Shown: positions 2,375 to 20,000, numbered from the stretch's first letter. The stretch is DNA of 20,000 nt from an uncultured virus (IMG/VR IMGVR_UViG_3300021599_002865) (IMGVR_UViG_3300021599_002865); one strand, 5' to 3'. Made by a program: numbers and translations. Notes: generated by a model not told the origin, from the sequence alone.

Positions 2375-2375
2375 A

Positions 2376-4619: not shown

Positions 4620-4624
4620 TACGA

Positions 4625-4631: not shown

Positions 4632-4649
4632 TTTGTCATCCTTTTTTTA

Positions 4650-7499
4650 TTAATCCTGTGCACATTTACAGCTCGCGTTTGAACATTGTTTTGATGAACA
4701 AGAGATAAGAGAATTATCTACGCTGTCAATACAATAAGCAACTATTGTTGGGTCAGGTCCTGGACTTCCTGAAACGTTGTCTATCATATTACCCGAAGAA
4801 TTTCCACTTGTTATTGTTACGGTTTTATAAAATACCCCATAGTTACTCGTCTCAATCTGAATCGAAAAACTAGTATCAATTGTCACAATGTTTTGCGTAG
4901 TAATTACTATGTCCACTGCGGGTTCACCCAAATTAGTAGTTGGTGTCACAATCAAACTTGTCACAGGATTACAAACAATACTTCCACCATCACTATTATA
5001 AACCATCTTGAACACATCACCTGCAACAAGATTAATCGGGTTATACATAACAACACTAACACTTTCATTTATTCCCGCAGAACAGAATCCGTTGAAAATA
5101 CCCGAGCCAACTTCAACGTCATTCAGCATTGCTTTAACCTCAACATAATAATTGTCGCTTGTTGGTGTTTGGAAGTTTGCCTGCATGTATTGAACATTAT
5201 TATTTGGGGATATACCACACGGATATGTGGATAGTCCTGAATCAATTGTAAGAACACCACCAGTAGGGCTATATCTGAAATTTTGGAAACAACCCACCTT
5301 ATTTGGTCCTGAACAAATTAATCCTCCAACTAATTGATTCATGTTGAGATAAATGTTACCACTTTGAATAACACCTTGACATGTTACACATTCAGGTGTA
5401 TCAACCTGACCTTGATAGGTGATTGAGTTGTTATTCACCTGTGTTTTTTCTGTATCACCTACCGCTGAACAACAAGTGCATCCTTTGATGACTACATCAG
5501 AAACTTGAAAAGAAATTGTCTGTTGTAGATTAGTTGTGCAGTTGGACTGAGCTCCAACTTGACCATCGGTTATTGTTAATATCGAAGTAGTAGAACCTGA
5601 AACAGTGCTAAAATTTGAGAGTTCCAACGAATATTGGTCAGTCTCAGTATCAATTCTTTGTGTCTCGGGATTACAGTTTGGTCTACTTCCAATAACAGTA
5701 TCTATGTCTGTGGAGAAAGGTGTCTTTGTTGAACCATTTTGTAGAATAGTAAAGTTGTCTACACAAGTTCCTGTTCCTGGTCCATTGAATGTCTTGATAG
5801 ATGATGTTGTCAAATTGAAATTAACCACAACTCCATTAGGTATAGGCGGAACCGAAGTAACATAAAAATATGTTGTTTTCGTTGAAATATTATTTGAAGA
5901 TACCTCAGTGTTTAATTGTGGTTGTGTTATAATATTAATTTGATATGTTTGTGGACTTCCCACTGAACTTATTTGAACCGATTGATTAACTATATTATTC
6001 GCGGCATCTATAACTCTAATATTGTATGTGTTCGGGCAAAGATTTGTAAAAATATTTGAGGTTTGATATGATACCCCGTTATTAATCGAATATTGATATG
6101 GTGCTAATCCAAATCTCGCACTAACCGTTATTGAACCATCACAGTTCGTTTGGTTGTTGCAAGACGCATCTTGTTTTGTTGTTGTCACTTGAAGTGGTAT
6201 TATTGTAGGACAAGAACCTAAAGTTACATTTATAGTATAAGTTTGTGTTCCACCAAGTAAACTCCAACCACCTAAAGGTGGTAATGAAGTGGTTGAGGAC
6301 GCAAAAATACCTCCCCCCACAGGGTTTATTGGTGTTATCAAATCTGAACCAACAAGTTCCCATCTTGTTCCTTTCCACACAATGTTCTGTGAATTACTAC
6401 TTGTCCATCTTGGTTTACCATTAGACGTTCCATTTTGACTGAACGTTGTTGGTCCTACAACGTTAGAATTGTTGTATGCCAAGAAACAAATGTTGGCGTA
6501 AACTGGTGGAGGTGTTGTGGATGGCGTTACAGTTGGGGATGGAGTTGGACTTGCTGTCGGTAAAAGTATGGAGCAAACTGTGTTTGCAGTATAGTCACCG
6601 TAATAATCAACAACGGTAACAGGATAATAACCAGGTCCTATGTTAGTTAAAGTTCTTGTTCTTTGACCATTTGCCCAATAAATTGAATACGGACTTGTTC
6701 CTCCTGTGATGTTCAAAGTGAGAATCCCATCATATGATTCTGAGTTTGAAGGCATTTTGAGAAGATTACAATTCACACCCAAATCGAAAAGGGTAAACGG
6801 TTCACAATTGTTTTTCGGACGATAAACTGGTGTTGGGTTAGGTGTTGGTGTTTGACTTGGTGTTACATTTGGTGTCAGACTTGGCGTTTGAGTAGGGGTC
6901 GGTGTAGTTGTGAGAGTAGTTGTTGGTGAGGCTGTTTGTGTTGGTGTTGGGGTCAGGCACGCTGTGGTTGCAGGCTCGTTCAATAAAACTACACCACTAT
7001 AAACTTGAGTATAATCTAACGAAACAAGGACTTCAAAACTTTCACCTTTTTGGAAATTACCACAACAATCTGTATACCAAAATATTCCAGTTGTATAAGC
7101 ACTTCCACACACTATTGGGGTGGATGATGGGGTCTGCGTTGGTGTAGGGGTATTAGTGGGAGTTTTGGTAGGGGTCGGTGTTTGGGTTGGAGTTTTAGTT
7201 TGCGTAATAGTTTGTGTTGGTGTTGGTGGTGGGGTTTGAGATTGGGTTGGCGGGGGGGTTTGAGTCGGTGTTTGTGTAGGGGTTTGGCTCGAAGAAGGAA
7301 TAGGGGGCGTGGGACAAGCACCGAGAACTGTGAGTATTATGAACTCACCTGGAGCTTGACCTGGCACAGTATAGGAACAAACAGTTATTGTGCCGCTCGG
7401 TGGAATTGTAGGAATAGGATTCAATTCACAGTCAAACCCTATAGGAGTTGCAGGTAAAATTGCGGACCCATTTGTTATTTGATAGTTAATACAAGCCAT
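4650..7499 (-). CDS. Cys-rich modular putative virion protein with Pro/Thr linkers and two SprB-like repeats, 949 aa
   Basis: TPTQTP tracts lie at about 7118-7295, 6830-6955 and 6505-6560. The SprB-like repeats are DGILTLNITGGTSPYSIYWANG...PGYYPVTVVD and DGSITVSARFGLAPYQYSINNG...FTNLCPNTYNIRVID. There is no signal peptide. Confidence 0.7.
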   Translation of the reverse strand: MACINYQITNGSAILPATPIGFDCELNPIPTIPPSGTITVCSYTVPGQAPGEFIILTVLGACPTPPIPSSSQTPTQTPTQTPPPTQSQTPPPTPTQTITQTKTPTQTPTPTKTPTNTPTPTQTPSSTPIVCGSAYTTGIFWYTDCCGNFQKGESFEVLVSLDYTQVYSGVVLLNEPATTACLTPTPTQTASPTTTLTTTPTPTQTPSLTPNVTPSQTPTPNPTPVYRPKNNCEPFTLFDLGVNCNLLKMPSNSESYDGILTLNITGGTSPYSIYWANGQRTRTLTNIGPGYYPVTVVDYYGDYTANTVCSILLPTASPTPSPTVTPSTTPPPVYANICFLAYNNSNVVGPTTFSQNGTSNGKPRWTSSNSQNIVWKGTRWELVGSDLITPINPVGGGIFASSTTSLPPLGGWSLLGGTQTYTINVTLGSCPTIIPLQVTTTKQDASCNNQTNCDGSITVSARFGLAPYQYSINNGVSYQTSNIFTNLCPNTYNIRVIDAANNIVNQSVQISSVGSPQTYQINIITQPQLNTEVSSNNISTKTTYFYVTSVPPIPNGVVVNFNLTTSSIKTFNGPGTGTCVDNFTILQNGSTKTPFSTDIDTVIGSRPNCNPETQRIDTETDQYSLELSNFSTVSGSTTSILTITDGQVGAQSNCTTNLQQTISFQVSDVVIKGCTCCSAVGDTEKTQVNNNSITYQGQVDTPECVTCQGVIQSGNIYLNMNQLVGGLICSGPNKVGCFQNFRYSPTGGVLTIDSGLSTYPCGISPNNNVQYMQANFQTPTSDNYYVEVKAMLNDVEVGSGIFNGFCSAGINESVSVVMYNPINLVAGDVFKMVYNSDGGSIVCNPVTSLIVTPTTNLGEPAVDIVITTQNIVTIDTSFSIQIETSNYGVFYKTVTITSGNSSGNMIDNVSGSPGPDPTIVAYCIDSVDNSLISCSSKQCSNASCKCAQD

Positions 7500-7530
7500 T
7501 AATTTATAATTATCTTTTCCATTTTTTTAT

Positions 7531-8871
7531 TTATGAACATCCACCACAATCTACGCTATCAGTGCAAATAGTTACACTACTACAAGGTTGAATTGATGTA
7601 ACCCCACCTGAAAAATCACCCGACCCAGCTCGGATGCACCTTTCGACTTTTGAACCTGCAGAAAGTGGTTCACCAACTACTGAACCATCACATAAAGTAT
7701 ATTGTATTGTTGAACCCACAACATCTTGATTTTCAAAGTAATAACACAAACATGGACAAACATAAGTTCCACAAGAGCTTATATCATCGAAATTAGTTAT
7801 TGCCACTACAACACCATTTAAGATTTCCATAACATAAAGTGGTGGTGACGATATATCAGGATTTGCTGGATACGTAGATGGTCCGTATACATATTTTCCT
7901 GTAAGAGTTGTGTTTACAAAAAATATTCCAAAAAGATTATAATATAATTGACTGCCAGGTCCTAAAGTAGTTGAAGAATTGTAATAATACCCTGCGTTTC
8001 CATCTACCTCAACTAATGGGTCGAAAGCTTCTATAAAATCACATTTCACTTCTTCTTTTGTTTTTGATGTCCAATTTATTTCTGACCCACATATAGTTGC
8101 CCCATATGATAAAAGAAACTCAACAAATGAAGGTGTAACCGTTGGCGTTTGTGAAGGGGTTTCTGTTTGGGTAGGAGTTTGAGGAGGTGTTTCAGATTGG
8201 GTAGGAGTTTGGGTTTGGGATGGAGTTTGAGTTTGTGTTGGTGTCGATGGAACACAAAGTGAAAAAGATACTATTTTACCTTGGGAATCAATTACCACTT
8301 GATATAATGTTCCTCCGAAAGAAATGATATATGTGTTCCCACCCCCATTCAAAGGGTTATATAATACCCCGTTTAGAAGTGTTTGGTAAATTGTGGCACC
8401 TACAACAGGGACTAAATTTGCCTCTGAAATGTATGTATAATAACCTGTTAGATTGAGTGGTGATGAACAACTATCAGCTGTCGGGTGAAAAACAACAAGA
8501 GGTGTTGCGGTTGGTGTTGATGATATAGTTGCTGTATTCGAGGTAGTGGGTGAATTTGTTGGTGTCATGGATGGCGTTTGGGTTGGTGACAAGGTAGGTG
8601 AATACGACGGGGTTGGTGTCATGGTTGGGGTTTTAGTGACATTTGGTGTTGGTGTGGGAGTTATATCTATAGGAATCTCATCAATACAACCTTGGGTATC
8701 TTCAATTTTAATAACAATTGTTGATTCACTATATGGTGATGGGACATAGAATGAGAATGGAAATGTTGCAACCGACGCAACAAATTGACAGTCGCCACCA
8801 CCCGAGTTACAATAATATATGTCAACTGGTGTATTTGCAGTTACAGATTGGATAGTTACAAATTGACTCAT
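7531..8871 (-). CDS. Cys-rich modular putative virion protein with Pro/Thr linkers, about 446 aa
   Basis: The ORF track starts at 8901, but the ATG at 8871 (MSQFVTIQ) forms an ATGA overlap with the upstream stop and aligns with the N-terminus of the 72-aa paralogue. PT tracts lie at about 8500-8665 and 8140-8250. Confidence 0.75.
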   Translation of the reverse strand: MSQFVTIQSVTANTPVDIYYCNSGGGDCQFVASVATFPFSFYVPSPYSESTIVIKIEDTQGCIDEIPIDITPTPTPNVTKTPTMTPTPSYSPTLSPTQTPSMTPTNSPTTSNTATISSTPTATPLVVFHPTADSCSSPLNLTGYYTYISEANLVPVVGATIYQTLLNGVLYNPLNGGGNTYIISFGGTLYQVVIDSQGKIVSFSLCVPSTPTQTQTPSQTQTPTQSETPPQTPTQTETPSQTPTVTPSFVEFLLSYGATICGSEINWTSKTKEEVKCDFIEAFDPLVEVDGNAGYYYNSSTTLGPGSQLYYNLFGIFFVNTTLTGKYVYGPSTYPANPDISSPPLYVMEILNGVVVAITNFDDISSCGTYVCPCLCYYFENQDVVGSTIQYTLCDGSVVGEPLSAGSKVERCIRAGSGDFSGGVTSIQPCSSVTICTDSVDCGGCS

Positions 8872-9086
8872 GCTACATAAGTTACTCCTGAGATTATGCA
8901 ATTCTGCGAATCAATTACTTTCAACATGTAAGCCAGTCCAGTATCATATGGTTGTGGTATATCAAAATCATATGGAAGAGTTGTTATAGTATTAATATAA
9001 AAGCAACCACTACCGTTTGGTTGACAGATATAAATGTCAAATGGTGATTGTCCTGTTATACCATTTATTGTAACTTGAACTGCCAT
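8868..9086 (-). CDS. Small 72-aa beta-rich module protein, paralogous to the N-terminal domain of the downstream gene
   Basis: VTINGITGQSPFDIYICQPNGSGC...LPYDFDIPQPY...LKVIDSQNCI aligns with VTIQSVTANTPVDIYYCNSGGGDC...FPFSFYVPSPY...IKIEDTQGCI. It is coupled at both ends (TAAgATG and ATGA). Confidence 0.85.
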   Translation of the reverse strand: MAVQVTINGITGQSPFDIYICQPNGSGCFYINTITTLPYDFDIPQPYDTGLAYMLKVIDSQNCIISGVTYVA

Positions 9087-9087
9087 C

Positions 9088-12000
9088 TTATGTTGTTCGT
9101 TTTATAAAAATTTTATACAAAGTTCCTGTCACTGATGGGAAAACAATTGTGTAACATCCTACAAGAGGTTTGTAATTGAATGGTGGATTTGTAAGTTGAA
9201 CTGAATTCAACACGAAACCGCCATACTTGTTACATTCAACAACTTTTGTTGTTTGTGAGTTACCTGAAAGGAGATACCAAGTTCCACTGACATCAACAAA
9301 CCCACATTGTGCACCGTAACGAATGTATTGTCCGAATTCATTACCAATATCAAACGGAAGGGTGGTTAGGTTAATTTCATCAGGTGTGCTAGATAAGACG
9401 AAGTTCATATTATAAGTTCCGTCTCCATTATTTTCCAAACTTACATTCAAATAAACCTCAACTTCATCAACACTACTCAAACACGTATCACAACTCAAAT
9501 AGGTTTTATCAGGTGCTGAAGCAAAGTAATCTCCATCGAATCTTTGTGAGGTTGCAATTTTGATAGGTGCAAAATAATTACAATCAAATTCACCCTCATA
9601 GGTCCAACAATTTCCATCAGCATCTTTAAATTGTCTTCCAACTGTAGTCTGTATTGGTGATTGTTGTGTTTGAATCATATATGTTCTGACTGTATTTGGA
9701 CTAATTGGAATACAACTTGAATAAACATATACCAAACAAGGGGTTTCACTTGGCGTTGGGGTCATCGTTGAAGTAGGACTATAAGACGGTGTTTGTGATG
9801 GAGTCTGAGTTTGGGTTGGCGTTGATGAATAACTTGGCCTTGGTGTTGCTGTTGGTGTAAGACCAGGAGTTGTTGTCTGTGTTGGAGTTGGCGTGAATGT
9901 AGGAGTCGAGGACGAAGTTTGTGTCGGCGTAATTGTCATCGTTGGTGTTGATGTAGGTGTTGATGTTATCGTCGTTGAAGGTGATGGTGAAGGGACTGTT
10001 GAACATTTCGAACAATCGTTTCCAAAAATATCAATTATCGAGTCTACGTTCGTGTTAGATGATAAGTTTGAATCATCCCTCAAATACTTCAAGCAAAGAA
10101 TTGTTTCATTAATAACCGCCGAGAATACCATCTCAGTTTGGATTGGAATTTCCTCAAACACAAGTGGGTCAGAAGTGTAGAAATAATTTTCAGTTCCACA
10201 TTGATTCAATACCTTAACCGAAACACAACTGAATGTTTCTTCAAATATATTGAAGGTAACTTGTCCATCCGCAGGAACTGTTCTTGTCAGTGTTATCGTT
10301 GGTGTGTTTGAAGGGGTTGGGGTTGAATCAGGAACATAATTAATCTCAAAGTCGACACTTTTCCCAAGACATATCAATCCTGTTGGTGATGGAGTTGGCG
10401 TTACACCTATGGAAGTGAAAATGAAATTCACATCGTCACAAGGAACTGACGGACTTGGTGTTGGGACTGGTTCCCAATCACAGTCAAAGTATGCATTGAA
10501 ATCGAAGGTGTCACAATTTATTGGCGTTGGAGTTGGAGTTGGACAAACTCCTGGTTCAAAAGAACCGAAAGATATATCAGGACACGCAGAGTAACATGGA
10601 GACGAGCCCTTCAATAAACAAGTCCCACCGAGAGAGGTGCTCAGACACCAATAACTCTCAGTAACTGATGTAAAATAATAAATGTAACCCAAGCTGACGC
10701 TTCCACCAGAATAGGAGATTCTACCATTATAAGTTGCACCTGAAACGTAAAGTCCATTGTAATTCAACAAAGAAGGTAGGGTTGTAGTAAAGCAAAATTC
10801 ACCCGAATCACAAGCCGCTGGTGTCGAAGATACTGTCGGAGTGTTTGTTGGTGTTGAATACGGGGTTGGCGTTGGTGTGTTCAATAGACAAGCTCTACAA
10901 CTACCCCAATCAGGTGCACCCAAATCAGGTCCACCAGGACCTGAAAACTCTTCGAATCTATAACATCTATTGTTATATTCATAAACCGCTCCTTGATAAG
11001 CGGTATCTTCATCAACATTGGCATAAAATATTTCTTCAGTGGAACAGTCAATCAATAATGCAGCAACACTCGCAACTCTTGGACAAAGTGTAGAACCGCA
11101 ACCTGTTACATTTGTAAATGTAACCGATGTTCCATCATATATTGGACCACTTCCCGAATCAACAACTGTCGCACATCCTTCATATTCTGTAGAACCTGTG
11201 ATAAGATAGACATCGTCAACCACAACTGCAACTGGTAAATCCTCAAATCTGAATAAAGTCCCTGAAACACAATCACGGAACCCTATTAGGTTTTGTGTCG
11301 GTGTTTGAGTGTTAGTTGGGGTATTAGATGGCGTTTGAGTTGGGTCTGGAGTTACAGAAGGTGTCTGTGTCGGAGTTTCGGTTTGAGTTTGGGTTGGTGT
11401 TACATCAGGGGTTGGTGATAGAGTCTGTGAAGGCGTCTGAGTTGGAGTTTCTGAAGGTGTTTGTGTAGGAGTCTCAGTTGCTGTAGGGGATGAACCAATA
11501 GTTGATGTAGGGGTCTGAGTTGGGGTTTCGGATGGTGTTTGTGTAGGAGTTTCTGAAGGCGTTTGAGTAATAGTCTCAGTTGGTGTTTGTGTGGGAGTTT
11601 CGGTTATTGTAGGAGTCTGAGTTGGGGTTTCAGAAGGTGTTTGAGTAGGGGTTTCAGATGGTGTTTGTGTAGGTGTTTCTGTTGCTGTAGGTGACGAACC
11701 TATAGTTGCGGTTGTTGTTGGTGTAGGCGTTTCGGTTGGAGTTTCAGTTGGAGTTTCAGTTGTTGTCGGTGTAGGTGTTGGAGTACCACAACAATCTACA
11801 AATGTATCCGTAGCATAAGACGATACTGGAAAGTAAGCGACATTGTTTTTATAATAATAAGTCGACTGAACGTAATTTGCACAAAATGAATCGTCGAAAG
11901 TTCCTGCGTCAGCAAAACTTGCCGTGGTCAGTATATTATAACAATTGTAATAGTCTACGAATATAGTGTTGTTTAGTGACGAAGGTGTATTACCCGTGGC

Positions 12001-13389: not shown

Positions 13390-13498
13390 GAATTACTTAC
13401 TTACCTTATAAATAACTTGAACTTTATTTTTTTCACATTCAAAATATAGTTTGACTAAAAACAATATAAAGGCACGCTCAGCCTATATTTATGATTAT
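13390..13498. promoter_or_regulatory. Divergent promoter region with TATTTAT on both strands
   Basis: The minus-strand TATTTAT at 13414-13408 precedes the 1433-aa gene. The plus-strand TATTTAT at 13486-13492 lies 6 nt before the ATG at 13499. Confidence 0.5.
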
Positions 13499-13681
13499 AT
13501 GAAACTTCTTAAAACGATAAAGAAGATTATTCAAGAGGCTGAAGAACAGTATAATACTGCAAGTGAGACTAACACACCACTTGAAGAATTAGATAGACTC
13601 GAAAAACACTATCAAGACTCTCTGAAATTGTTACGCTTATACAATTCCAAACAGGAAAAACTAAAATCCAAGAAAAAATAA
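13499..13681 (+). CDS. Small charged helical protein (60 aa)
   Basis: MKLLKTIKKIIQEAEEQY...LEELDRLEKHY. The ATG at 13499 is preferred over the TTG at 13451 because the TATTTAT motif directly precedes it. Confidence 0.7.
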   Translation: MKLLKTIKKIIQEAEEQYNTASETNTPLEELDRLEKHYQDSLKLLRLYNSKQEKLKSKKK

Positions 13682-13733
13682 TTACATCTTAAGTCAATAG
13701 ATTTTCTTAAAGTTCTTTCTTATATTTCATCAC

Positions 13734-14672
13734 ATGAAAGAACCTCTATTAGACTTACATCTGAGTCATGGATTAGGTGACACTATTTGTGCAACACCTT
13801 CTTTAAGGAAACTATATTTTGCTTATGGAAAAAAAATATCAGTATTAACTGACCATCCACTAATATTCAAACATAACAAATATGTTGATAAAATCTTTGA
13901 TACCAAGAACACAAATAGAGATGATTTAGAATCTCAATACGAATTACTCGTAAGTTTTGCACCAAATTTAGAAAACCGATACGGTTTAGGATTACGTCAT
14001 AATGTTATGGACATAAGACAATTCCATGCGGCGGGGTTGGGTTTCCAATTATTACCCGAGGAATGTGATATGGATTACGTTCCTGATGAGTGGGAGCCAA
14101 TTGATGGTTTACCTGAAAAGTTTGTTTTGATACATCCCGTAACCTCTTGGGCTTCGAGAACTTGGCCCGCAGAGAAATGGCAGTTATTAACACGAATGTT
14201 AAACGATTACGGTATTCCTGTTGTTTCGATGGGGAAGGCATCGAGTGAGGTAGGTTTTCACATGGTAGACAAACCTGTTTTCGATTTCCCTATCAAACTT
14301 GGTTTGAATTTAATGAATAAAGCAAATGTCCCCCAAACTTGGTGGTTAATGCAAAAAAGTATTTGCACGGTCACCATGGACTCAGGTATGTTACACTTAG
14401 CAGGAACCACAGATGCAAACATCATTCAATTAGGTAGTTCTGTTCATTGGAAGTTAAGAGCCCCTTTTCGAAACGGTTCTCAAGAATATAAATTTCATTA
14501 TATTGATGGGGATTGTAAGATAGCATGTGCATCTGACATGAGATATGGTGTCAAAGAATGGGGTTCAATAAGAGGAATCCCACCTTTAGTTGGATGTTTA
14601 GAAGGAAAATCCGAATTTGTTTGTCATCCTAGCGTTCTACAAATTTTCAATAAAATATTAACCCTATTATGA
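13734..14672 (+). CDS. GT9-family (heptosyltransferase-like) glycosyltransferase
   Basis: Canonical GT9 motifs are present: GLGDTICATPSLRKL, VLIHP...SRTWPAEKWQLL and VTMDSGMLHLAG. The C-terminus has a Cys cluster (CKIAC...C...C). Confidence 0.85.
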   Translation: MKEPLLDLHLSHGLGDTICATPSLRKLYFAYGKKISVLTDHPLIFKHNKYVDKIFDTKNTNRDDLESQYELLVSFAPNLENRYGLGLRHNVMDIRQFHAAGLGFQLLPEECDMDYVPDEWEPIDGLPEKFVLIHPVTSWASRTWPAEKWQLLTRMLNDYGIPVVSMGKASSEVGFHMVDKPVFDFPIKLGLNLMNKANVPQTWWLMQKSICTVTMDSGMLHLAGTTDANIIQLGSSVHWKLRAPFRNGSQEYKFHYIDGDCKIACASDMRYGVKEWGSIRGIPPLVGCLEGKSEFVCHPSVLQIFNKILTLL

Positions 14673-17600
14673 GTATAAGATACAACTTTATAGAGGTCGG
14701 AACATCAGACTTCATGACTCTAATTCAATCTGCTGATGACCAAACTGTCGGACTCAGTATCGAACCCATTTCAGAATATCTCGATAGATTACCTAATAAA
14801 CCCAAAGTTCAAAAAGTCAATGCGGCTCTTTCTGATACAGACGATACTATTGAAATATATCATATAGAATCTAAAGATTTAGAAAAATACAATCTTCCCT
14901 ATTGGATTAGAGGATGTAACTCTGTTAATGGTCCTCATGAATTTACAAAGAAAAAAATTGGTGATGAAACATATAACAAGTTGGTAAAAATTGATAAAGT
15001 CCCAACTATATCTTGGAAAACTTTAATAGAAAAATACAATATAGGTTCAATTGATTATTTAAAAATTGACACTGAAGGTCATGAACATATAATTTTAAAA
15101 GGGTATCTCGAACAATGTAGACTGAATCATAATCTTTTCGCATCTAAAATTGAATTCGAATACAATGAAACATCAAATAAAATTGAATTAGATAAAATTA
15201 TAAATCAATTATCAAATTATAATGTAACTTATTTGGAGGAAGACGTTATATTGAACATCAAAACAGAGTCTGAATTTGACAAATCTTATGTCTTATATTC
15301 AACCGAAAATTACTTTGATATTGTAACTGAATGTGCAAAATCAATAAGACAATTTAGTAAACTACCAATATTGGTTTATTTAATAAATTCAAACAGAACT
15401 GTTGAAGTAGAAAATACCAAGACTTTAAATTGGTCTATAGATATCGAACCTACTTCAAATAACATGTATATTAAGGAAAGGGACAACTTTTACATAGATA
15501 GAAAAAATCCAATAATTTATAAAATTTTATCTCAAAGACCTCTGATTATCAAAGATGCTTTAGAAAAATATTCAAATATTGTTTGTTATGTTGACAGCGA
15601 TTCAATCGCAACCCCTAACGTTGATACTATATTTTCATATTATGATGAAAATTCATCTCACCCATATTTTGTTGAAGGGATATACGATTTTTTGAAATAC
15701 GATGGTAGAGGTGGAGGAGGAGGATTCGGAGGTGGAATGGAAACAACTTTGGAACACGATACCTGTGTCTTGTTTGGTGTTGACCAATCGGTCAGAAAAA
15801 ACTATAGACAAACAGGATATTTCGTTTCAGGTCAAAATACCATCGAGTTTTTGGAGGAATGGTATTGGATGTGCTCACACCCAAAAGTCCTGAAAAATGT
15901 TAGTCATTATGCTCCGTATAATGAGGAGACTATTTGTAACGTTCTATTATGGAAATACAATATAGATAAGGGTCTTCCCTATGTCTATGTCAATGGGAGA
16001 TTAGAAACGGTTGAGAAAATGTATACCCAAGTAGAATATAAAGGAAAGGGTATCAGAAACCACATCGGTGAATGGTTAAGAGTTCCTGAAGAAAAAAATC
16101 ATCTCCTGTTTTTTCATGGTGAAAAAAATCCAAACATGATGAGAGAGATGGTAGATGAAATCAAAAAATATAACAAGGAAAAACTTAGAATTTTATACTT
16201 AGCACCTCACCTTTCAACTGGTGGTATGCCAGCTTACTTATTGAAAAGAATCGAAACCCTACAAGAATATTACCCTGAGGTAGAATTATATGTTGTTGAG
16301 TATTGTCTTTACTCAACTTGGTATGTGGTTCAAAAAGAAAAAATAAAACAAATTATACCCGATAACAGATATTGGACATTAAACACTTTGGGAAATCATA
16401 ATGATGAAAATTCTCTGAAGTTAATTCAAATTATAAAAGATAATTCAATTGATATTGTTCATGTTGACGAAATACTTGAGGGGTTTGATAGTTTCAATCG
16501 AGTATCAATAAATGTCTTAAATGCACTTTTTGATAACAACAGAACTTGGAAAATTGTCGAGACCTGTCATAATATTCATTTTAATCCTGAGAATAGACAT
16601 TTTCATCCCGACGCTTACGCCTTCTGTTCTCCCCATCATCCGAAGGTTCAATTCAAAAATGAAAATTCTTATTATGAATTTTTTGAATACCCTATTGACC
16701 GAAAATTTGTTACCGAAGAACAAAAAGAACACGCAAGGTTAAAACTTGGTTTAGACCTTAATAAAACCCATGTGATAAACGTTGGACTTTGGACTCAAGG
16801 AAAAAATCAAGGAGAGGGCATCGAAATCGCAAGATATCTACAAGGTGAAGATATAGAGTTTCATTTCATAGGAAATCAAGCATCAAATTTCGAAAGTTAT
16901 TGGAAACCTCTGATGATGAATTTACCATCAAATGTAAAAATTTGGGGTGAAAGGAGTGATGTGGATTTGTTTATGAAAGCATCAGACATATTTTTATTTA
17001 ACTCCACAATTGAATGTAATCCCCTTGTTCTTAGGGAAGCCGCTTCTTATGGTTTAAAAATTCTTTCTAGAAATCTTACACAATATTATGATATGTTTAC
17101 ACCATACATCACACCAATTGATGATGATTGTGAGAAAACGTCAAACATAATTCGTGAGTTAAAATACAATGGAATCTCAAGAGACTATGAAGTTAGTCAT
17201 GACCAATCTCAGAACTTTGCTTTATCTCATAAAAAGTTTTATGAGAAGTTAAAAACTATGGATATAAAGATTCAAAAATCATCAAAGAATAATATACAAA
17301 TTACTCAATATTTTATAAGACAACCTTTTTTAGAAATTAAAGGGGATTCAAGTTCTAAGTTTTTGGTTCAATTCATTGATGATAAAGGGGTAATTCATTA
17401 TGAAAATAAAATAGATTCCAACTGTTGGGTAAAACTTAACAGACAATATTTTACAAATTGGAGAACTAAGGTTTACGAAGAAGAAACACTAATATATGAC
17501 TCGAAATTAGATTTGAAAGACAAAAGAGTGTTTATAAATTTTGATAGTAAATCTTTAGGTGACAACATTGCTTGGGTGCCTTATGTTTTGGAGTTTCAAA

Positions 17601-18358
17601 AGAAACATAATTGTAAAATTATTCTTTCCACATTTTGGAATAAGTTATTCAAAGAAGTTTACCCTGAGATAGAATTCATAGAACCAGGGAATGTTGTAAA
17701 AGACATTCATGCACAATACTCCATTGGTTGGTTTTATAATGAAAATATGGAACCAGTAATCCCGAATACAATTCCTCTCCAAAAAGCAGCAACAAACATC
17801 TTAGGTTTGGAATTTGAAGAAATAAAACCACGAATTAATTTTAACGTTTATCGAAGACCTTTTGATGAAAAATATATAAGTATCGCAACCAATTCCACCT
17901 CAGGTTTAAAATTTTGGAAAAAAGAATATTGGCAAGAACTAATTGATTACTTAGTAGATTTAGGTTTCAAAGTAATAAACGTATCAAAAGAAAAAAATGA
18001 GTTCAGAAATGTTACACAAATTTCAGATAGTTCAATTGGTAATACCATGAATGTAATACATCATAGTGAATTTTTCATAGGTTTATCAAGTGGACTTTCT
18101 TGGTTGTCTTGGGCAATGGGTAAACACGTTGTGATGATTAGTAATTTTACTGAACCCGACCACGAATTTACCACAAACTGCACCCGAATTATAAACAAAT
18201 CAGTCTGTAATGGATGTTGGAATAACCCCAACTTCAAGTTCGATAAAGGTGATTGGGATTGGTGTCCAATTCACAAAGGAACACCAAGACAATTTGAGTG
18301 TCACACTTCAATAACACCAAGTATGGTAATAAATCAAATTCAAAATTTATTGAAATGA
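14669..18358 (+). CDS. Four-domain fusion: FkbM-like methyltransferase + GT-A (DxD) + GT4 + TibC/Aah-like protein O-heptosyltransferase, 1229 aa
   Basis: FkbM domain (about 14669-15260): FIEVGTS, SIEP, IDYLKIDTEGHE. GT-A domain (about 15280-16170): CYVDSD, NEET, FFHG. GT4 domain (about 16185-17260): RILYLAPHLSTGG, NVG...KNQ, FMKASDIFLFNS..ECNPLVLREA. TibC/Aah-like domain (about 17320-18358): SLGDNIAWVPY, FFIGLSSGLSWLSWA, CNGCWN...WCPIHKGTPRQFEC. Confidence 0.85.
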   Translation: MSIRYNFIEVGTSDFMTLIQSADDQTVGLSIEPISEYLDRLPNKPKVQKVNAALSDTDDTIEIYHIESKDLEKYNLPYWIRGCNSVNGPHEFTKKKIGDETYNKLVKIDKVPTISWKTLIEKYNIGSIDYLKIDTEGHEHIILKGYLEQCRLNHNLFASKIEFEYNETSNKIELDKIINQLSNYNVTYLEEDVILNIKTESEFDKSYVLYSTENYFDIVTECAKSIRQFSKLPILVYLINSNRTVEVENTKTLNWSIDIEPTSNNMYIKERDNFYIDRKNPIIYKILSQRPLIIKDALEKYSNIVCYVDSDSIATPNVDTIFSYYDENSSHPYFVEGIYDFLKYDGRGGGGGFGGGMETTLEHDTCVLFGVDQSVRKNYRQTGYFVSGQNTIEFLEEWYWMCSHPKVLKNVSHYAPYNEETICNVLLWKYNIDKGLPYVYVNGRLETVEKMYTQVEYKGKGIRNHIGEWLRVPEEKNHLLFFHGEKNPNMMREMVDEIKKYNKEKLRILYLAPHLSTGGMPAYLLKRIETLQEYYPEVELYVVEYCLYSTWYVVQKEKIKQIIPDNRYWTLNTLGNHNDENSLKLIQIIKDNSIDIVHVDEILEGFDSFNRVSINVLNALFDNNRTWKIVETCHNIHFNPENRHFHPDAYAFCSPHHPKVQFKNENSYYEFFEYPIDRKFVTEEQKEHARLKLGLDLNKTHVINVGLWTQGKNQGEGIEIARYLQGEDIEFHFIGNQASNFESYWKPLMMNLPSNVKIWGERSDVDLFMKASDIFLFNSTIECNPLVLREAASYGLKILSRNLTQYYDMFTPYITPIDDDCEKTSNIIRELKYNGISRDYEVSHDQSQNFALSHKKFYEKLKTMDIKIQKSSKNNIQITQYFIRQPFLEIKGDSSSKFLVQFIDDKGVIHYENKIDSNCWVKLNRQYFTNWRTKVYEEETLIYDSKLDLKDKRVFINFDSKSLGDNIAWVPYVLEFQKKHNCKIILSTFWNKLFKEVYPEIEFIEPGNVVKDIHAQYSIGWFYNENMEPVIPNTIPLQKAATNILGLEFEEIKPRINFNVYRRPFDEKYISIATNSTSGLKFWKKEYWQELIDYLVDLGFKVINVSKEKNEFRNVTQISDSSIGNTMNVIHHSEFFIGLSSGLSWLSWAMGKHVVMISNFTEPDHEFTTNCTRIINKSVCNGCWNNPNFKFDKGDWDWCPIHKGTPRQFECHTSITPSMVINQIQNLLK

Positions 18359-19029
18359 GTATAGAAAATTTTATATGGGAACCTAAATGTTACGATGGTT
18401 TTAGAGAAACTGTGGAACAAGAAATATTTGTTGACAGGATTTACGAAAGATTTTTTGAGGTTGAAGAGGGCGATATTGTTTTCGATATTGGGGCTAGTTT
18501 AGGTCCTTTCACATATTCAATATTATCAAAGAATCCTTCTCACGTATTTGCTTTTGAGCCTAGTTTTGAAGAATTCAAAACTTTGTTATTAAATACAAGA
18601 CACGGAAATGTAACCGCAATAAATAAAGGTATTTCGAGTTCAATAGGTGAATTTAATTTCACTGATGTTTTTGATTTGACTGGTGGTTATAAACTATATT
18701 CAACAACATTCTCAAAGGTAATTGAGGATTATAATATTAAAAAAATTGACTTTCTTAAAACTGATTGTGAATCAGGCGAATATGATATATTCACAATTGA
18801 AAATTTGTTTTGGATAAAAAATAATGTCAGAAAAATTGTTGGTGAGTGGCACCTTGGCCAGCCTTGGATGAAAGAAAAATTCAGAATTTTTAGAGATGTG
18901 TATTTGAGGGTTTTTCCTAACTTTAAAGTAATTTCTTTTGATGGAATTGATATAACTTGGCAAATATGGAATGATAATTTTATCCCTTATTATAACGAAG
19001 TAATGATTTATATTGACAATAGTAAATAA
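18355..19029 (+). CDS. FkbM-family SAM-dependent methyltransferase (224 aa)
   Basis: Motifs VFDIGASLGPF, VFAFEP, IDFLKTDCESGEY and IVGEWH are present. The start is moved from 18298 to the ATG at 18355, which forms an ATGA overlap with the upstream stop. Confidence 0.88.
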   Translation: MSIENFIWEPKCYDGFRETVEQEIFVDRIYERFFEVEEGDIVFDIGASLGPFTYSILSKNPSHVFAFEPSFEEFKTLLLNTRHGNVTAINKGISSSIGEFNFTDVFDLTGGYKLYSTTFSKVIEDYNIKKIDFLKTDCESGEYDIFTIENLFWIKNNVRKIVGEWHLGQPWMKEKFRIFRDVYLRVFPNFKVISFDGIDITWQIWNDNFIPYYNEVMIYIDNSK

Positions 19030-19072
19030 AAAAAACGCACCCATTTTATTGAGTGCGTTTTTGTATTTTTTT
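19028..19072. terminator. Bidirectional intrinsic terminator between convergent genes
   Basis: AAAAACGCAC (19031-19040) pairs with GTGCGTTTTT (19053-19062). The stem extends by CA/TG around a TTTTAT loop, with an A-run on the left and T-runs on the right. Confidence 0.85.
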
Positions 19073-19077
19073 ATTCC

Positions 19078-20000
19078 TTATACTATTGGACGATACTCGA
19101 GTAATACTTTTTCTACGTCTTTTCTCTCAGCATTTATCATAAAGAACGCGTCGATATGAGAACTTTGAGAGTCTATGAAGACTTTATTATCTTCAATTTT
19201 GACAACAAAGTGTGTATTAGAAACACCAATTGGTGTTAATGATACCGAAATCGATTCCTCTTTTACTAATCCTATCCAATAATGAGGTAATTCTATTACG
19301 TTTCCTTGAACTCTACCTCTGAAATAAACACCATGTTCAGGACCCTCCAACACACCATATCTTAATCTCCAACCTTCTTTTGTAGGGTGAGGAATATCGA
19401 ATGATTTAGAAGCCGCTGTTAATGCTCCTGTTATATTAGTGTCACCAGTCACTTTGAGTGTTGAACCATCAAACTGAAGGTTTTGTTCACCATTGATTGT
19501 TCCTGCGGTTCCTGTCGCAGTAAGGACATAGTCATTAACGTTGTTGTTGATTGTCCCGAGTCCAGAAGAACCTGATGTTCCACTTGTGCCAGAGGAACCT
19601 GATGTTCCACTAGTTCCCGAAGAACCTGATGTTCCGCTAGTTCCCGAAGAACCTGATGTTCCACTAGTTCCCGAGGAACCTGATGTTCCACTAGTTCCCG
19701 AAGAACCTGATGTTCCGCTAGTTCCCGAAGAACCTGATGTTCCACTAGTTCCCGAAGAACCTGATGAGCCTGATGTTCCACTTGTTCCAGATGAACCTGA
19801 TGTTCCGCTCGAACCTGACGTTCCACTTGTTCCAGAAGAACCTGATGTTCCGCTAGTTCCAGATGAACCTGAACTTCCAGATGAACCTGATGTTCCAGAT
19901 GTTCCATTTGTTCCAGAAGTTCCTGACGAACCACTTGAACCAGATGAGCCAGATGTTCCACTTGTTCCAGATGAGCCAGATGTTCCACTTGTTCCAGATG
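19078..20000 (-). CDS. Partial (3' part) tail-fibre-like protein: Gly-Ser/Thr repeats followed by a C-terminal phage fibre/chaperone-like domain
   Basis: The frame of the 124-aa track ORF stays open upstream to the window end: (SGSSGTSGT)n-SGSSGLGTINNNVNDYVLTATGTAGTINGEQNLQFDGSTLKVTGDTNITGALTAASKSFDIPHP...LEGPEHGVYFRG...IELPHYW. This C-terminal motif is familiar from phage fibre C-termini. Confidence 0.75.
   Translation of the reverse strand, partial: SGTSGTSGSSGTSGTSGSSGSSGSSGTSGTNGTSGTSGSSGSSGSSGTSGTSGSSGTSGTSGSSGTSGSSGTSGTSGSSGSSGTSGTSGSSGTSGTSGSSGTSGTSGSSGTSGTSGSSGTSGTSGSSGTSGTSGSSGTSGTSGSSGLGTINNNVNDYVLTATGTAGTINGEQNLQFDGSTLKVTGDTNITGALTAASKSFDIPHPTKEGWRLRYGVLEGPEHGVYFRGRVQGNVIELPHYWIGLVKEESISVSLTPIGVSNTHFVVKIEDNKVFIDSQSSHIDAFFMINAERKDVEKVLLEYRPIV
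19562..20000 (-). repeat. Coding 9/27-bp tandem repeat encoding G-S-S / G-T-S triplets
   Basis: Seven 27-bp units (consensus gaagaacctgatgttccactagttccc on +) lie at 19565-19753, followed by more degenerate units to the window end. Confidence 0.95.

What the first reader, a model, noticed from the sequence alone, without database searches (positions are those of the whole stretch)
4650..20000. Candidate phage-encoded protein O-glycosylation system flanked by its likely substrates (glycosylated, mucin-like virion)
Seen in sequence: a coupled operon with four glycosyltransferase domains and two FkbM methyltransferase domains lies between genes with hundreds of Thr/Ser residues, in PT linkers on the left and GSS/GTS repeats on the right. 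Established: TibC/Aah-family enzymes attach heptose to Ser residues in repeats of autotransporters (TibA, AIDA-I) in the cytoplasm, PT/PTS linkers are classic O-glycosylation sites, and FkbM-family enzymes often O-methylate glycans. Inference: the TibC-like domain primes Ser/Thr on virion proteins, GT9/GT4/GT-A extend the glycan and FkbM caps it. The result would be a glycan coat affecting protease resistance, fibre stiffness, adsorption or grazing.
Basis: partly seen in the sequence, partly recalled or inferred. Interest (0 to 1): 0.88.

Follow-up and report, generated by a model that had tools for sequence, protein, structure and literature searches.

The report
Phage TibC-like cassette beside serine-collagen fibre
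An uncultured giant phage carries a fused four-enzyme sugar-adding gene, including a true relative of the E. coli adhesin-glycosylating enzyme TibC, facing a huge proline-free Gly-Ser/Thr-Ser collagen-like fibre gene, so it probably sugar-coats that fibre, although no sugar has been measured.

Summary
The window contains a translationally coupled cassette: a GT9-like gene; a 1229-aa fusion of FkbM, GT-A, GT4 and a TibC/Aah-type (BAHT) domain; and a second FkbM gene. Three Pro/Thr-linker proteins lie on one side and a 1899-aa (Gly-Thr/Ser-Ser)n collagen-like fibre gene on the other. The contig is a fragment of a ~321-kb T4-core myovirus.

The BAHT domain passes the curated TIGR04414 cut-off and keeps the catalytic Asp and all four iron-finger Cys. 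In viral relatives, a proline-free Ser/Thr collagen gene lies downstream and convergent in 32 of 41 informative clusters, against 1 of 37 upstream. A tree of 118 domains splits cleanly into collagen-linked and AIDA/autotransporter-linked halves.

The Pro/Thr-linker proteins are poorly linked to this cassette and are Thr-dominated, whereas TibC modifies Ser. In this lineage they sit directly upstream of a GT60 GlcNAc-transferase gene elsewhere in the genome (77 of 80 loci).

The donor sugar is uncertain, and no glycan has been observed. My searches found no publication describing this pairing. Earlier notes from this scan report it on other DNA (73 findings, at least 65 genomes). A cultured phage, Microcystis phage Mel-JY01, carries the pairing and could serve for a test.

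The parts
4650..7499 (-). 949-aa Pro/Thr-linker protein with SprB repeats (34 Cys, 3 PT linkers)
   Evidence: (PF13573 SprB, E 4.5e-8). No other family hit.
7531..8901 (-). 456-aa Pro/Thr-linker protein
   Evidence: (phrog_15511, function unknown, E 5.4e-16).
9088..13389 (-). 1433-aa Pro/Thr-linker protein: 10 linkers totalling 426 residues (T 157, S 46, P 98) and 59 Cys
   Evidence: Homologues occur near the BAHT gene in 7 of 52 representative loci.
13407..13414 (-). TATTTATA motif 17 nt upstream of the 1433-aa gene. The same motif precedes the portal, tail-tube, baseplate-wedge and collagen-fibre genes.
   Evidence: The motif lies 3-47 nt upstream of 20 of 165 ORFs. 27 of 45 genome hits are intergenic, where about 7% of the contig lies outside ORFs of 100 aa or more.
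13451..13681 (+). Small ORF (76 aa from TTG, 60 aa from the ATG at 13499) ahead of the cassette. Unknown; may not be a gene.
13734..14672 (+). 312-aa GT9-like glycosyltransferase, a distant paralogue of the BAHT domain that shares the S-x-x-L-G-D motif
   Evidence: PF01075, E 5.2e-12; 24% identity to the BAHT domain, E 1e-5; present in 10 of 52 loci.
14669..18358 (+). 1229-aa fusion protein; its four domains are listed in the entries below
14729..15217 (+). FkbM methyltransferase domain (residues 21-183)
   Evidence: PF05050, E 4.3e-13; TIGR01444.
15254..16183 (+). GT-A fold domain (residues 196-505), GT6/GT8-like, with an invariant D-x-D
16727..17098 (+). GT4-type (GT-B) domain: Pfam match at residues 687-810; the domain as a whole spans roughly 510-860
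   Evidence: PF00534, E 2.3e-8; co-occurs with the BAHT domain in 49 of 52 loci.
17357..18346 (+). BAHT (TibC/Aah-type) domain, residues 897-1226
   Evidence: TIGR04414, 293.6 bits against a cut-off of 200; TibC PDB 4rb4, E 8.9e-54; catalytic Asp, T226, K230, W305 and all four Cys conserved in 52 of 52; R286 is Thr.
18355..19029 (+). Second FkbM methyltransferase; its start overlaps the fusion gene's stop (ATGA)
19031..19062 (.). Terminator-like hairpin (13 pairs) between the convergent cassette and fibre gene
19078..20000 (-). 3' part of the collagen-like fibre gene: GTS/GSS triplets plus a 160-aa C-terminal domain. The gene runs beyond the window and is 1899 aa in the contig.
   Evidence: (phrog_17490, phrog_28536 and tail-fibre PHROGs).

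Best explanation
The cassette is a phage-encoded cytoplasmic protein O-glycosylation line whose main substrate is the convergently encoded, proline-free (Gly-Thr/Ser-Ser)n collagen-like fibre.

Proposed mechanism, all steps inferred:
- The BAHT domain, using its conserved Asp base, attaches the first sugar to Ser hydroxyls of unfolded fibre chains before they trimerise. The sugar would be heptose from host ADP-heptose, or a related sugar.
- The fused GT4 and GT-A domains and the separate GT9-like enzyme extend the glycan.
- The two FkbM domains O-methylate it.
- The dense glycan hydrates, stiffens and protects a fibre with about 1550 residues in triplets. That is roughly 0.44 micrometres if it forms a triple helix (rise per residue recalled, not computed).

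What is shown: the domain identities, the conserved catalytic residues, and the gene linkage across relatives. What is inferred: the substrate, the sugar, the order of steps and the effect.

The Pro/Thr-linker proteins to the left are more likely served by a separate GT60-led cassette elsewhere in the same genome.
For: 1. Family membership. TIGR04414 scores 293.6 bits against a cut-off of 200 and 296.8 bits in the genome search. Solved TibC matches at E 8.9e-54.

2. Catalytic residues. Residues named in PMC4358343 (passages) are kept: the Asp-110 equivalent, T226, K230, W305 and Cys-339/342/358/370 are each conserved in 52 of 52 phage representatives at 50-70% identity to the window's domain.

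3. Linkage in viral contigs. 161 viral contigs encode relatives. The 80 kept fall into 52 clusters at 95% identity.
- A Pro-free Ser/Thr collagen ORF lies within 10 kb downstream, always on the opposite strand, in 32 of 41 informative clusters, against 1 of 37 upstream.
- Counting only clusters with at least 7 kb of downstream sequence gives 20 of 29 (read from the table).
- At 80% clustering the figures are 26 of 31 against 1 of 27.
- The link also holds for stand-alone enzymes of 355-390 aa.

4. Tree. In 118 BAHT domains, a branch with SH-aLRT 100 separates 74 rows (43 with a Ser/Thr-collagen neighbour, 0 AIDA-like) from 44 rows (25 with an AIDA-like neighbour, 0 collagen). Pfam confirmed AIDA repeats in 7 of 7 checked neighbours and collagen in 4 of 4.

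5. Varying gene order. Distant members keep the pairing in other arrangements. In cultured Microcystis phage Mel-JY01, a Gly-Ser/Thr collagen ORF of at least 1016 aa lies co-directionally two genes upstream of a 1226-aa fusion with a BAHT C-terminus.

6. Internal control. Three other collagen-like fibres of this phage are GAQ/GSQ-type (Ser+Thr 0.12-0.19) and lie far from the cassette.

7. Residue preference. TibC modifies Ser and not Thr. The fibre's Y position is Ser in 462 of 518 triplets.

8. Donor sugar. ADP-heptose pathway genes flank the enzyme in 4 of 52 loci.

9. Late-gene signal. The fibre gene carries the TATTTATA motif also found before the portal, tube and baseplate genes.

10. Precedent. 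C. difficile SgtA, encoded next to bclA3, O-glycosylates Thr/Ser in its collagen repeats (passages in PMC7157674).
Against: - No glycan has been measured on any of these proteins.
- The collagen/AIDA contrast amounts to one change on the tree. It is one ancient switch that has been retained, not many independent events.
- 9 of 41 informative clusters have no Ser/Thr collagen ORF within 10 kb downstream.
- Ser/Thr collagen fibres with the same C-terminal domain exist without a BAHT gene in the fetched locus: L110, L113 and L114/116/117. L112 also lacks one, but only about 2 kb downstream was held. In the 3 of 3 of these loci that I examined, a GT4-GT25 fusion lies nearby.
- The TibC sugar-binding Arg-286 is Thr in 52 of 52 representatives.
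- The complete 321-kb genome lacks rfaE domain I, rfaE domain II and gmhA, so the donor sugar is unknown.
- TibC recognises a folded beta-helix through its iron finger. A collagen repeat is a different kind of acceptor.
- The cassette genes themselves lack the TATTTATA motif.
- The fibre's C-terminal domain gave no significant fold match, so its place on the virion is inferred from PHROG tail-fibre hits that rest mainly on the collagen repeats.
Confidence: 0.6

Rival explanations
1. One cassette serves all flanking repeat proteins. The BAHT domain primes both the Pro/Thr linkers on the left and the GSS/GTS fibre on the right.
For: - The three PT-linker genes abut the cassette, and the 1433-aa gene is divergent from it across a 344-bp spacer.
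- PT-rich ORFs occur in 10 of 52 representative loci (read).
- 6 of the 10 loci that contain the GT9-like 312-aa gene also contain a PT-rich ORF.
Against: - Homologues of the 1433-aa protein occur in only 7 of 52 loci, all close relatives.
- The linkers are Thr-dominated, whereas TibC/AAH modify Ser and not Thr.
- Four of the seven PT-rich genes of this genome lie elsewhere.
- In this lineage, PT-rich genes sit directly upstream of GT60 in 77 of 80 loci.
Confidence: 0.15
2. The cassette remodels host envelope glycans (LPS core, capsule) or makes a free polysaccharide during infection. Its position next to fibre genes is a matter of synteny only.
For: - GT9, GT4 and FkbM families are mostly known from LPS and polysaccharide pathways; the best NCBIfam hits of the 312-aa protein are LPS heptosyltransferases, far below their cut-offs.
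- The phage carries many other glycan genes: GT2, GT10, GT11, GT25, GDP-sugar enzymes and UDP-galactopyranose mutase.
Against: - The BAHT model is passed above its curated cut-off, and all characterised members glycosylate proteins.
- The collagen link persists across 50% sequence divergence and across different gene orders.
- I noticed no membrane or lipid-carrier features in the translations, but I ran no dedicated test.
Confidence: 0.12
3. The BAHT domain glycosylates some other phage or host protein, such as another fibre or a host adhesin. The Ser/Thr collagen gene is merely a common neighbour within tail-fibre modules.
For: - 9 of 41 informative clusters lack the collagen ORF. At least three of these (L044, L050, L058) have other large Gly-rich fibre-like ORFs downstream; a fourth large ORF, which I took to be in L047, falls in the truncated part of the output.
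- The phage encodes several proteins of 1600-2560 aa with no family assignment.
Against: - The upstream side, which also holds structural genes in many loci, has a Ser/Thr collagen ORF in only 1 of 37 clusters.
- The other collagen fibres of this genome (GAQ/GSQ type) are not beside the enzyme.
- No AIDA or autotransporter neighbour occurs in the collagen-linked half of the tree (0 of 74 rows).
Confidence: 0.1
4. The transferases glycosylate phage DNA.
For: Phage glycosyltransferases often modify DNA. This is stated in PMC12619734 (passage).
Against: No hypermodified-base pathway was noticed next to the cassette. The BAHT family and the collagen linkage point to a protein substrate.
Confidence: 0.02

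Closest known systems
TibC-TibA and Aah-AIDA-I of E. coli (bacterial autotransporter heptosyltransferases, BAHT; TIGR04414; PDB 4RAP/4RB4; PMC4358343)
   Same: - The same enzyme family by curated score.
- The catalytic Asp, three of four sugar-binding residues and the four-Cys iron finger are conserved.
- The enzyme gene lies next to a Ser-rich repeat protein.
- It acts on a cytoplasmic, multi-site target.
   Different: - The neighbour is a Gly-X-Y collagen-like phage fibre, not an AIDA-repeat beta-helix autotransporter.
- The enzyme belongs to a separate branch of the tree.
- Arg-286 is replaced by Thr.
- It is fused to FkbM, GT-A and GT4 domains.
- It is encoded by a virus.
SgtA-BclA3 of Clostridioides difficile and glycosylated BclA of Bacillus exosporium (PMC7157674; PMC8968730)
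   Same: A glycosyltransferase encoded next to a collagen-like filament gene O-glycosylates Thr/Ser within Gly-X-Y repeats. The glycan is thought to help hydration of the helix (passages).
   Different: - SgtA is a GT-A enzyme that adds GlcNAc to GPT repeats, which contain Pro.
- Here the initiating enzyme is a GT-B BAHT, and the repeats have essentially no Pro (10 in 1899 residues).
Virion glycosylation of mycobacteriophages (Freeman et al. 2023, Cell Host Microbe)
   Same: Phage-encoded glycosyltransferases decorate the phage's own virion proteins. I saw this only as a one-sentence description in PMC12619734. The paper itself was not held.
   Different: - There, the glycans sit on C-terminal extensions of capsid and tail-tube subunits of siphoviruses of Actinobacteria.
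- No BAHT enzyme or collagen fibre is involved (recalled, not checked).
CAZy GT60 / PF11397 polypeptide alpha-GlcNAc-transferases of protists (T. cruzi mucins, Dictyostelium)
   Same: This is relevant to the PT-linker proteins. The genome encodes a PF11397 protein (E 4.6e-66) directly behind PT-rich genes. GT60 enzymes start mucin-type chains on Thr (PMC8724618 passage; PMC3769586 abstract).
   Different: - It lies outside the window, about 75 kb away on the contig.
- It is of phage rather than protist origin.
- No activity has been tested.
Moraphages, large aquatic phages with predicted Bacteroidota hosts (PMC12619734)
   Same: - Large aquatic T4-distant phages with several core glycosyltransferase groups of unknown target, and with DnaJ.
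- This phage also has DnaJ and SprB repeats.
   Different: Membership was not tested. The paper mentions neither collagen nor heptose (0 occurrences of each).

Membership tests
BAHT (TIGR04414, TibC/Aah) | Whole-protein score above the curated cut-off of the equivalog model | tested here: met
   293.6 bits against 200; 296.8 bits.
BAHT (TIGR04414, TibC/Aah) | Catalytic base equivalent to TibC Asp-110 | tested here: met
   Asp within S-L-G-D aligns to position 110. Conserved in 52 of 52 phage representatives.
BAHT (TIGR04414, TibC/Aah) | Sugar-binding residues Thr-226, Lys-230, Trp-305 and Arg-286 | tested here: inconclusive
   T226, K230 and W305 are conserved in 52 of 52. Arg-286 is Thr in 52 of 52. 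Three of four residues met.
BAHT (TIGR04414, TibC/Aah) | Iron finger: four Cys (339, 342, 358, 370) | tested here: met
   All four align and are conserved in 52 of 52. Iron binding itself is not testable here.
BAHT (TIGR04414, TibC/Aah) | N-terminal beta-barrel and dodecameric ring | not testable with these tools
   The alignment to TibC starts at residue 59 of the 97-residue barrel. PF21129 was not reported for this protein at E 0.01. Oligomeric state was not examined.
BAHT (TIGR04414, TibC/Aah) | Adjacent AIDA-repeat autotransporter substrate | tested here: not met
   The window has no AIDA or autotransporter domain. The neighbour is collagen-like. The collagen-linked branch has 0 AIDA-like neighbours among 74 rows.
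BAHT (TIGR04414, TibC/Aah) | Transfers heptose from ADP-heptose to Ser | not testable with these tools
   Indirect only. ADP-heptose genes lie beside the enzyme in 4 of 52 loci. They are absent from this phage's complete genome.
Collagen-like proteins (PF01391) | Long uninterrupted Gly-X-Y repeats | tested here: met
   PF01391 E 8e-210 for the full protein. 518 triplets in three blocks.
Collagen-like proteins (PF01391) | Forms a triple helix | not testable with these tools
   Not modelled. The composition (no Pro, few charged residues) is unusual for stable bacterial collagens as described in PMC8968730.
FkbM methyltransferases (PF05050 / TIGR01444) | Domain match above the gathering score | tested here: met
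   50.2 and 29.6 bits against 22.7. TIGR01444 gives 50.4 bits against 37.7 for the 243-aa protein, and 35.9 bits (just below the cut-off) for the fused domain.
GT-A fold glycosyltransferase (GT6/GT8-like) | Rossmann-like GT-A fold with a D-x-D motif | tested here: met
   Model pLDDT 88.7. Foldseek hits to GT6, alpha-1,3-GalT, BoGT6a, glycogenin and UGGT at E about 5e-7, TM about 0.5. D114 and D116 are invariant in 32 sequences. The CAZy family is not assigned.
Phage virion glycosylation systems | Glycan demonstrated on a virion protein | not testable with these tools
   No proteomic or glycan data were available. A search for a paper on Mel-JY01 found none.

The most novel reading that the evidence does not exclude
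This jumbo phage runs two orthogonal mucin-like protein glycosylation systems on its own particle.

- System 1: a BAHT-led assembly line hyper-glycosylates Ser in a proline-free collagen. The triple helix can form only because of the sugars, as reported (recalled, not checked) for glycosylated-Thr worm cuticle collagen.
- System 2: a GT60-led line decorates Thr, or hydroxylated Pro made by the phage's three P4H-like oxygenases, in Pro/Thr linkers.

Together with the fucose, galactofuranose, methyl and possibly sulfate genes, these would give the virion a eukaryote-like glycocalyx.
Probability: 0.25. Interest if true: 0.85.

Novelty: new variant of a known kind. Interest (0 to 1): 0.62.

Why it matters
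If true, three things follow.

- The BAHT family, known only for glycosylating autotransporter adhesins of Proteobacteria, would gain a second and much larger substrate class: collagen-like fibres. It would also extend into viruses.
- Tailed phages of aquatic bacteria would be shown to build heavily glycosylated fibres with their own enzymes. So far this is documented only for mycobacteriophage capsids and tails and for giant viruses of eukaryotes.
- It would explain how a Gly-Ser/Thr-Ser polymer without proline can serve as a fibre hundreds of nanometres long.

The idea is directly testable in a cultured system, Microcystis phage Mel-JY01, where the fibre gene is currently mis-annotated on the wrong strand.

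The enzyme family is large: 769 clusters at 50% identity with E up to 1e-30.

Tried and rejected
- **Nucleotide and whole-protein searches.** Megablast of the whole window against phage records found nothing. tblastn of the 1229-aa protein matched only through its BAHT part, in 4 records. The DNA polymerase is about 25% identical to any cultured phage, so no close cultured relative exists.
- **Fold of the fibre's C-terminal domain.** The model was mediocre (pLDDT 70.8), and Foldseek found no match at E 0.001. The best was a cyanophage tailspike receptor-binding domain at E 0.17. It could not be shown to be BclA/C1q-like.
- **T4-type late promoter TATAAATA in the window.** One match against 1.9 expected, not significant on its own. 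It proved to be the reverse complement of TATTTATA belonging to the minus-strand 1433-aa gene.
- **Sigma-70 promoter scan.** 37 sites found against 31.2 expected; uninformative.
- **Heptose pathway genes in the complete genome.** None found.
- **Reverse search with the fibre's C-terminal domain.** Most of the 80 kept loci hold proteins of about 256 aa without collagen repeats and without a BAHT gene. The domain alone does not predict the enzyme.
- **Small ORF frame.** A first reading of the small ORF upstream of the cassette was in the wrong frame and was corrected.
- **Literature.** Searches found no paper tying BAHT enzymes to collagen-like proteins or to phages and none on Mel-JY01. Freeman et al. 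2023 was not held.

Full report
**What the window is.** The window is the reverse strand of positions 110877-130876 of a 199,545-base IMG/VR viral contig, estimated at 65% complete. Contigs with an identical enzyme gene reach 321 kb and are classed as complete. The phage is a myovirus with a T4-type core:
- Gp20-like portal and Gp23-like capsid protein.
- Tail sheath, tube and baseplate proteins.

Its DNA polymerase is only about 25% identical to any cultured phage, and megablast of the window found nothing. Three weak hints point to a Bacteroidota host:
- SprB repeats.
- The closest genome-binned relatives of the enzyme sit on small contigs of Chitinophagaceae MAGs.
- The phage resembles the published 'moraphages' in having DnaJ and many glycosyltransferases.

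On the plus strand there are three coupled genes.
- Window 13734-14672, 312 aa: GT9 (PF01075, E 5.2e-12).
- Window 14669-18358, 1229 aa: a four-domain fusion.
- Window 18355-19029: FkbM.

The fusion holds four domains:
- FkbM at residues 21-183.
- A GT4-type domain, with a Pfam match at 687-810.
- At 897-1226, a match to TIGR04414, the Aah/TibC O-heptosyltransferase model, at E 2e-87 and 293.6 bits against a curated cut-off of 200.
- Residues 196-505, which had no Pfam hit. With an alignment of 32 homologues they fold at pLDDT 88.7 into a GT-A fold closest to retaining GT6/GT8 enzymes (Foldseek E 4.6e-7). Two Asp of a D-x-D motif are invariant.

Both gene junctions are ATGA overlaps.

To the left lie three minus-strand proteins of 1433, 456 and 949 aa, with 10, 3 and 3 Pro/Thr linkers and many Cys. 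To the right, beyond a 13-pair terminator-like hairpin, a collagen-like gene converges on the cassette. In the contig this gene is 1899 aa, with 518 Gly-X-Y triplets of which 458 are GTS or GSS. It has 701 Ser, 323 Thr and only 10 Pro.

**Is the TibC-like domain a real family member?** By sequence, yes. It aligns to solved TibC at E 8.9e-54. The TibC paper (PMC4358343, passages read) names these residues:
- Asp-110 as the catalytic base.
- Cys-339, 342, 358 and 370 as the iron finger.
- Pro-300 in TibC (Ser-294 in AAH) as the determinant of heptose stereochemistry.

In 52 phage representatives at 50-70% identity to the window's domain:
- The Asp, Thr-226, Lys-230, Trp-305 and all four Cys are invariant.
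- Position 300 is Ser in 49 of 52, as in AAH.
- Arg-286 is Thr in all 52.

The catalytic machinery is therefore intact, but one sugar contact differs throughout this branch.

**Linkage among relatives.** A scan of viral contigs found 161 relatives of the domain. The 80 kept form 52 clusters at 95% identity.
- A collagen-like ORF with at least 45% Ser+Thr and at most 2% Pro in its repeats lies within 10 kb downstream, always on the opposite strand, in 32 of 41 informative clusters. On the upstream side the figure is 1 of 37.
- Restricting to clusters with at least 7 kb of downstream sequence gives 20 of 29 (read from the table).
- At 80% clustering it is 26 of 31 against 1 of 27.
- The link holds for stand-alone enzymes of 355-390 aa, so it does not depend on the other fused domains.

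Among the other cassette parts:
- The GT4 domain accompanies the BAHT domain in 49 of 52 loci.
- The GT-A domain in 33 of 52.
- The 312-aa GT9-like gene in 10 of 52.
- The FkbM units in 6-9 of 52.

**A profile scan of one genome per prokaryotic species** found 528 relatives. I built a tree of 118 domains from 52 viral representatives and 80 genome loci. Fourteen candidates were dropped for lacking a domain hit of at least 250 residues at E 1e-20.
- The deepest branch (SH-aLRT 100) separates 74 rows from 44 rows.
- Of the 74 rows, 43 have a Ser/Thr-collagen neighbour and none has an AIDA-like neighbour.
- Of the 44 rows, 25 have a large Gly/Ser/Thr-rich neighbour and none has a collagen neighbour.
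- Pfam confirmed AIDA repeats in 7 of 7 such neighbours checked, 3 of them also with an autotransporter beta-domain. It confirmed collagen repeats in 4 of 4.

The label change is needed only once on the tree. The pairing with collagen is therefore one old switch that has been kept, not many independent gains.

Its retention does argue for a functional tie. The pairing survives across different phage types, different fusion architectures, some large cellular contigs (for example contigs of 238-308 kb) and different gene orders.

Microcystis phage Mel-JY01, a cultured phage, is the clearest case of a different order.
- It has a Gly-Ser/Thr collagen ORF of at least 1016 aa on the plus strand, at the very start of the record.
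- A 508-aa 'structural protein' follows, and then a 1226-aa fusion with a BAHT C-terminus.
- The record annotates the collagen region as Pro-rich hypothetical proteins on the opposite strand.

**Evidence bearing on the substrate.**
- TibC and AAH modify Ser but not Thr. The fibre's Y position is Ser in 462 of 518 triplets.
- The phage's three other collagen-like fibres are GAQ/GSQ-type, with 12-19% Ser+Thr, and lie about 45 kb away from the cassette.
- The fibre gene and the 1433-aa PT gene carry a TATTTATA motif a few bases upstream of the start. The motif is also found before the portal, tail-tube and baseplate-wedge genes. It precedes 20 of 165 ORFs, and 27 of 45 genome hits fall in the 7% of the contig that is intergenic. 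This suggests expression with the virion genes. The cassette genes themselves lack the motif.
- In the reverse direction, the fibre's 160-aa C-terminal domain belongs to a common family (198 contigs). Most members are proteins of about 256 aa with neither collagen repeats nor a BAHT neighbour.
- Ser/Thr collagen fibres with this domain but no BAHT gene in the fetched locus do exist: L110, L113 and L114/116/117. L112 also lacks one, but only about 2 kb downstream was held. In the 3 of 3 of these loci that I examined, a GT4-GT25 fusion lies two or three genes away. Ser/Thr collagen fibres thus seem to come with a glycosyltransferase, but not always this one.

**The donor sugar is open.** In 4 of 52 representative loci the enzyme is flanked by genes whose best matches are ADP-heptose 6-epimerase, heptose-7-phosphate kinase and heptose-1-phosphate adenylyltransferase. 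The E-values are 1.8e-47, 6.3e-34 and 7.9e-28, all below the curated cut-offs. The complete 321-kb genome of this phage has no match to rfaE domain I, rfaE domain II or gmhA. It would therefore have to use the host's ADP-heptose or another donor. The invariant Thr at the Arg-286 position leaves that possibility open.

**The Pro/Thr-linker proteins.** The genome has seven such proteins, four of them far from the cassette.
- Homologues of the 1433-aa protein are near the BAHT gene in only 7 of 52 loci. PT-rich ORFs of any kind occur in 10 of 52 (read).
- The linkers are Thr-dominated; in the 1433-aa protein they hold T 157, S 46 and P 98.
- About 75 kb away on the contig, two PT-rich genes are followed directly by a PF11397 (CAZy GT60) gene (E 4.6e-66), a GT25 gene and an HtrL-like gene.
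- GT60 enzymes start mucin-type chains with GlcNAc on Thr in protists (PMC8724618 passage; PMC3769586 abstract).
- The phage GT60 gene has 388 relatives in viral contigs. In the best 80, all at 84-100% identity, a PT-rich ORF of very variable length lies directly upstream on the same strand in 77. The other three have under 1 kb of upstream sequence. These are close relatives, so this is conserved synteny within one lineage rather than independent evidence.

I conclude that the PT-linker proteins are plausible glycoproteins. The better candidate for their initiating enzyme is GT60, not the cassette in the window.

**Mechanism proposed.** All steps are inferred. During late infection the fusion protein acts in the cytoplasm on unfolded fibre chains. 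Collagen modifications in general must precede trimerisation (passage in PMC8968730).
- The BAHT domain adds the first sugar to Ser.
- The GT4, GT-A and 312-aa GT9-like enzymes extend the glycan. The GT9-like enzyme is a distant paralogue sharing the S-x-x-L-G-D motif (24% identity, E 1e-5).
- The FkbM domains methylate it.

The glycan would supply the hydration and stiffness that proline, hydroxyproline or charge pairs supply in other collagens. It would also shield a fibre of about 1550 triplet residues, roughly 0.44 micrometres at the collagen rise per residue (a recalled figure).

The nearest experimental precedents are TibC-TibA and Aah-AIDA-I and SgtA-BclA3 of C. difficile. In the latter, a transferase encoded beside the collagen-like gene glycosylates Thr/Ser in its repeats.

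**Novelty.**
- My literature searches found no paper linking BAHT enzymes to collagen-like proteins or to phages. They also found none on Mel-JY01.
- Supplements and subscription journals were not searched.
- The moraphage paper notes four core glycosyltransferase groups of unknown target and does not mention collagen or heptose.
- Earlier notes from this scan describe the same BAHT-collagen pairing: 73 findings in at least 65 genomes. They describe the GT60-PT pairing in 8 findings.
- I consulted those notes only after reaching my reading. They agree with it but are not independent evidence.
- What this window adds is that both systems sit in one genome and can be told apart.

**Verdict.**
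- The system is a new variant of a known kind of system, protein O-glycosylation by BAHT-family enzymes, with a new substrate class and a viral setting.
- Confidence that the cassette glycosylates the collagen-like fibre: 0.6.

Noticed in passing
G000 contig 34900-46341 (outside the window); loci L180-L259: A second glycosylation locus. Two PT-rich genes (1309 and 629 aa) are followed by a PF11397/GT60 gene (E 4.6e-66), a GT25 gene and an HtrL-like gene. A PT-rich ORF lies directly upstream of GT60 in 77 of 80 related loci. GT60 homologues at 44-50% identity occur in the jumbo phages XacN1, Xoo-sp13 and Stenotrophomonas CM1/RAS14.
   Followed up: partly
G000 contig 17848-29505: A third glycan locus: GT2, GT4-type, two SDR epimerase/dehydratase genes (best hit GDP-L-fucose synthase, below cut-off), GT10 and GT11 fucosyltransferase-like genes, TylF and FkbM methyltransferases, and a GT2+GT4 fusion.
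   Followed up: no
G000 contig 196003-199500: A GT2 gene and a UDP-galactopyranose mutase (PF03275, E 6.8e-76) at the contig end suggest galactofuranose use.
   Followed up: no
G000 82101-82841; G001 about 152970-153233 and 162023-162214: The complete genome has three 2OG-Fe(II) oxygenase (PF13640, prolyl-hydroxylase-type) genes. They could hydroxylate Pro in the PT linkers. Similar oxygenases cluster next to the BAHT cassette in L022-L025.
   Followed up: no
G000 genome-wide; window 13407-13414: A TATTTATA motif lies 3-47 nt upstream of 20 of 165 ORFs, including the portal, tail-tube, baseplate-wedge, collagen-fibre and two PT-linker genes. 27 of 45 hits are intergenic. It is a candidate late-gene promoter element.
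   Followed up: partly
G001 (321,139 bases) positions 1-5417 and 319766-321139; loci L013-L020: The records classed as complete with direct terminal repeats begin and end inside the collagen-like gene, so the 'terminal repeat' is probably the gene's own tandem repeat. The gene's length differs (1430 to 2058 aa, with one frameshifted copy) among contigs whose BAHT domain is 100% identical.
   Followed up: partly
window 19767-19993: The window differs from the laid contig at 81 positions, all within the last 234 bases and inside the GTS/GSS repeat. This looks like a shift of repeat register between two versions of the record.
   Followed up: no
L341 (PP395634.1, Microcystis phage Mel-JY01) 1-3052: The GenBank record annotates two Pro-rich hypothetical proteins on the minus strand and a 177-aa protein. 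On the plus strand there is one open frame of at least 1016 aa of Gly-Ser/Thr triplets with a C-terminal domain. This is a probable wrong-strand annotation of a collagen-like fibre gene.
   Followed up: yes
loci L027, L043, L044, L050-L052, L058, L062, L067, L069, L071, L072, L078, L086; G000 170897-171346: APS-kinase-like genes (14 of 52 loci) and sulfotransferase/NoeE-like genes (13 of 52) lie near the BAHT gene in many relatives. This phage has an APS-kinase gene elsewhere. Glycan sulfation is possible.
   Followed up: no
loci L110, L113, L117: Ser/Thr collagen fibres without a BAHT neighbour are followed, after two collagen-type fibre genes, by a GT4+GT25 fusion that is sometimes joined to a 2OG oxygenase domain.
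   Followed up: partly
window 13451-13681 (+): A small Lys/Glu-rich ORF (76 aa from TTG, 60 aa from ATG) lies in the spacer between the 1433-aa gene and the cassette.
   Followed up: no
window 1-4619: Outside the finding:
- an exonuclease-like fragment;
- a DNA primase (phrog_47, E 5.3e-43);
- a RuvC-like protein (weak match);
- a 747-aa protein with 21% Ser+Thr and no family hit, directly downstream of the 949-aa PT protein.
   Followed up: no
G000 51024-52562: A 512-aa protein carries complete Fe/Mn superoxide dismutase domains (E 1.4e-39 and 1e-22).
   Followed up: no
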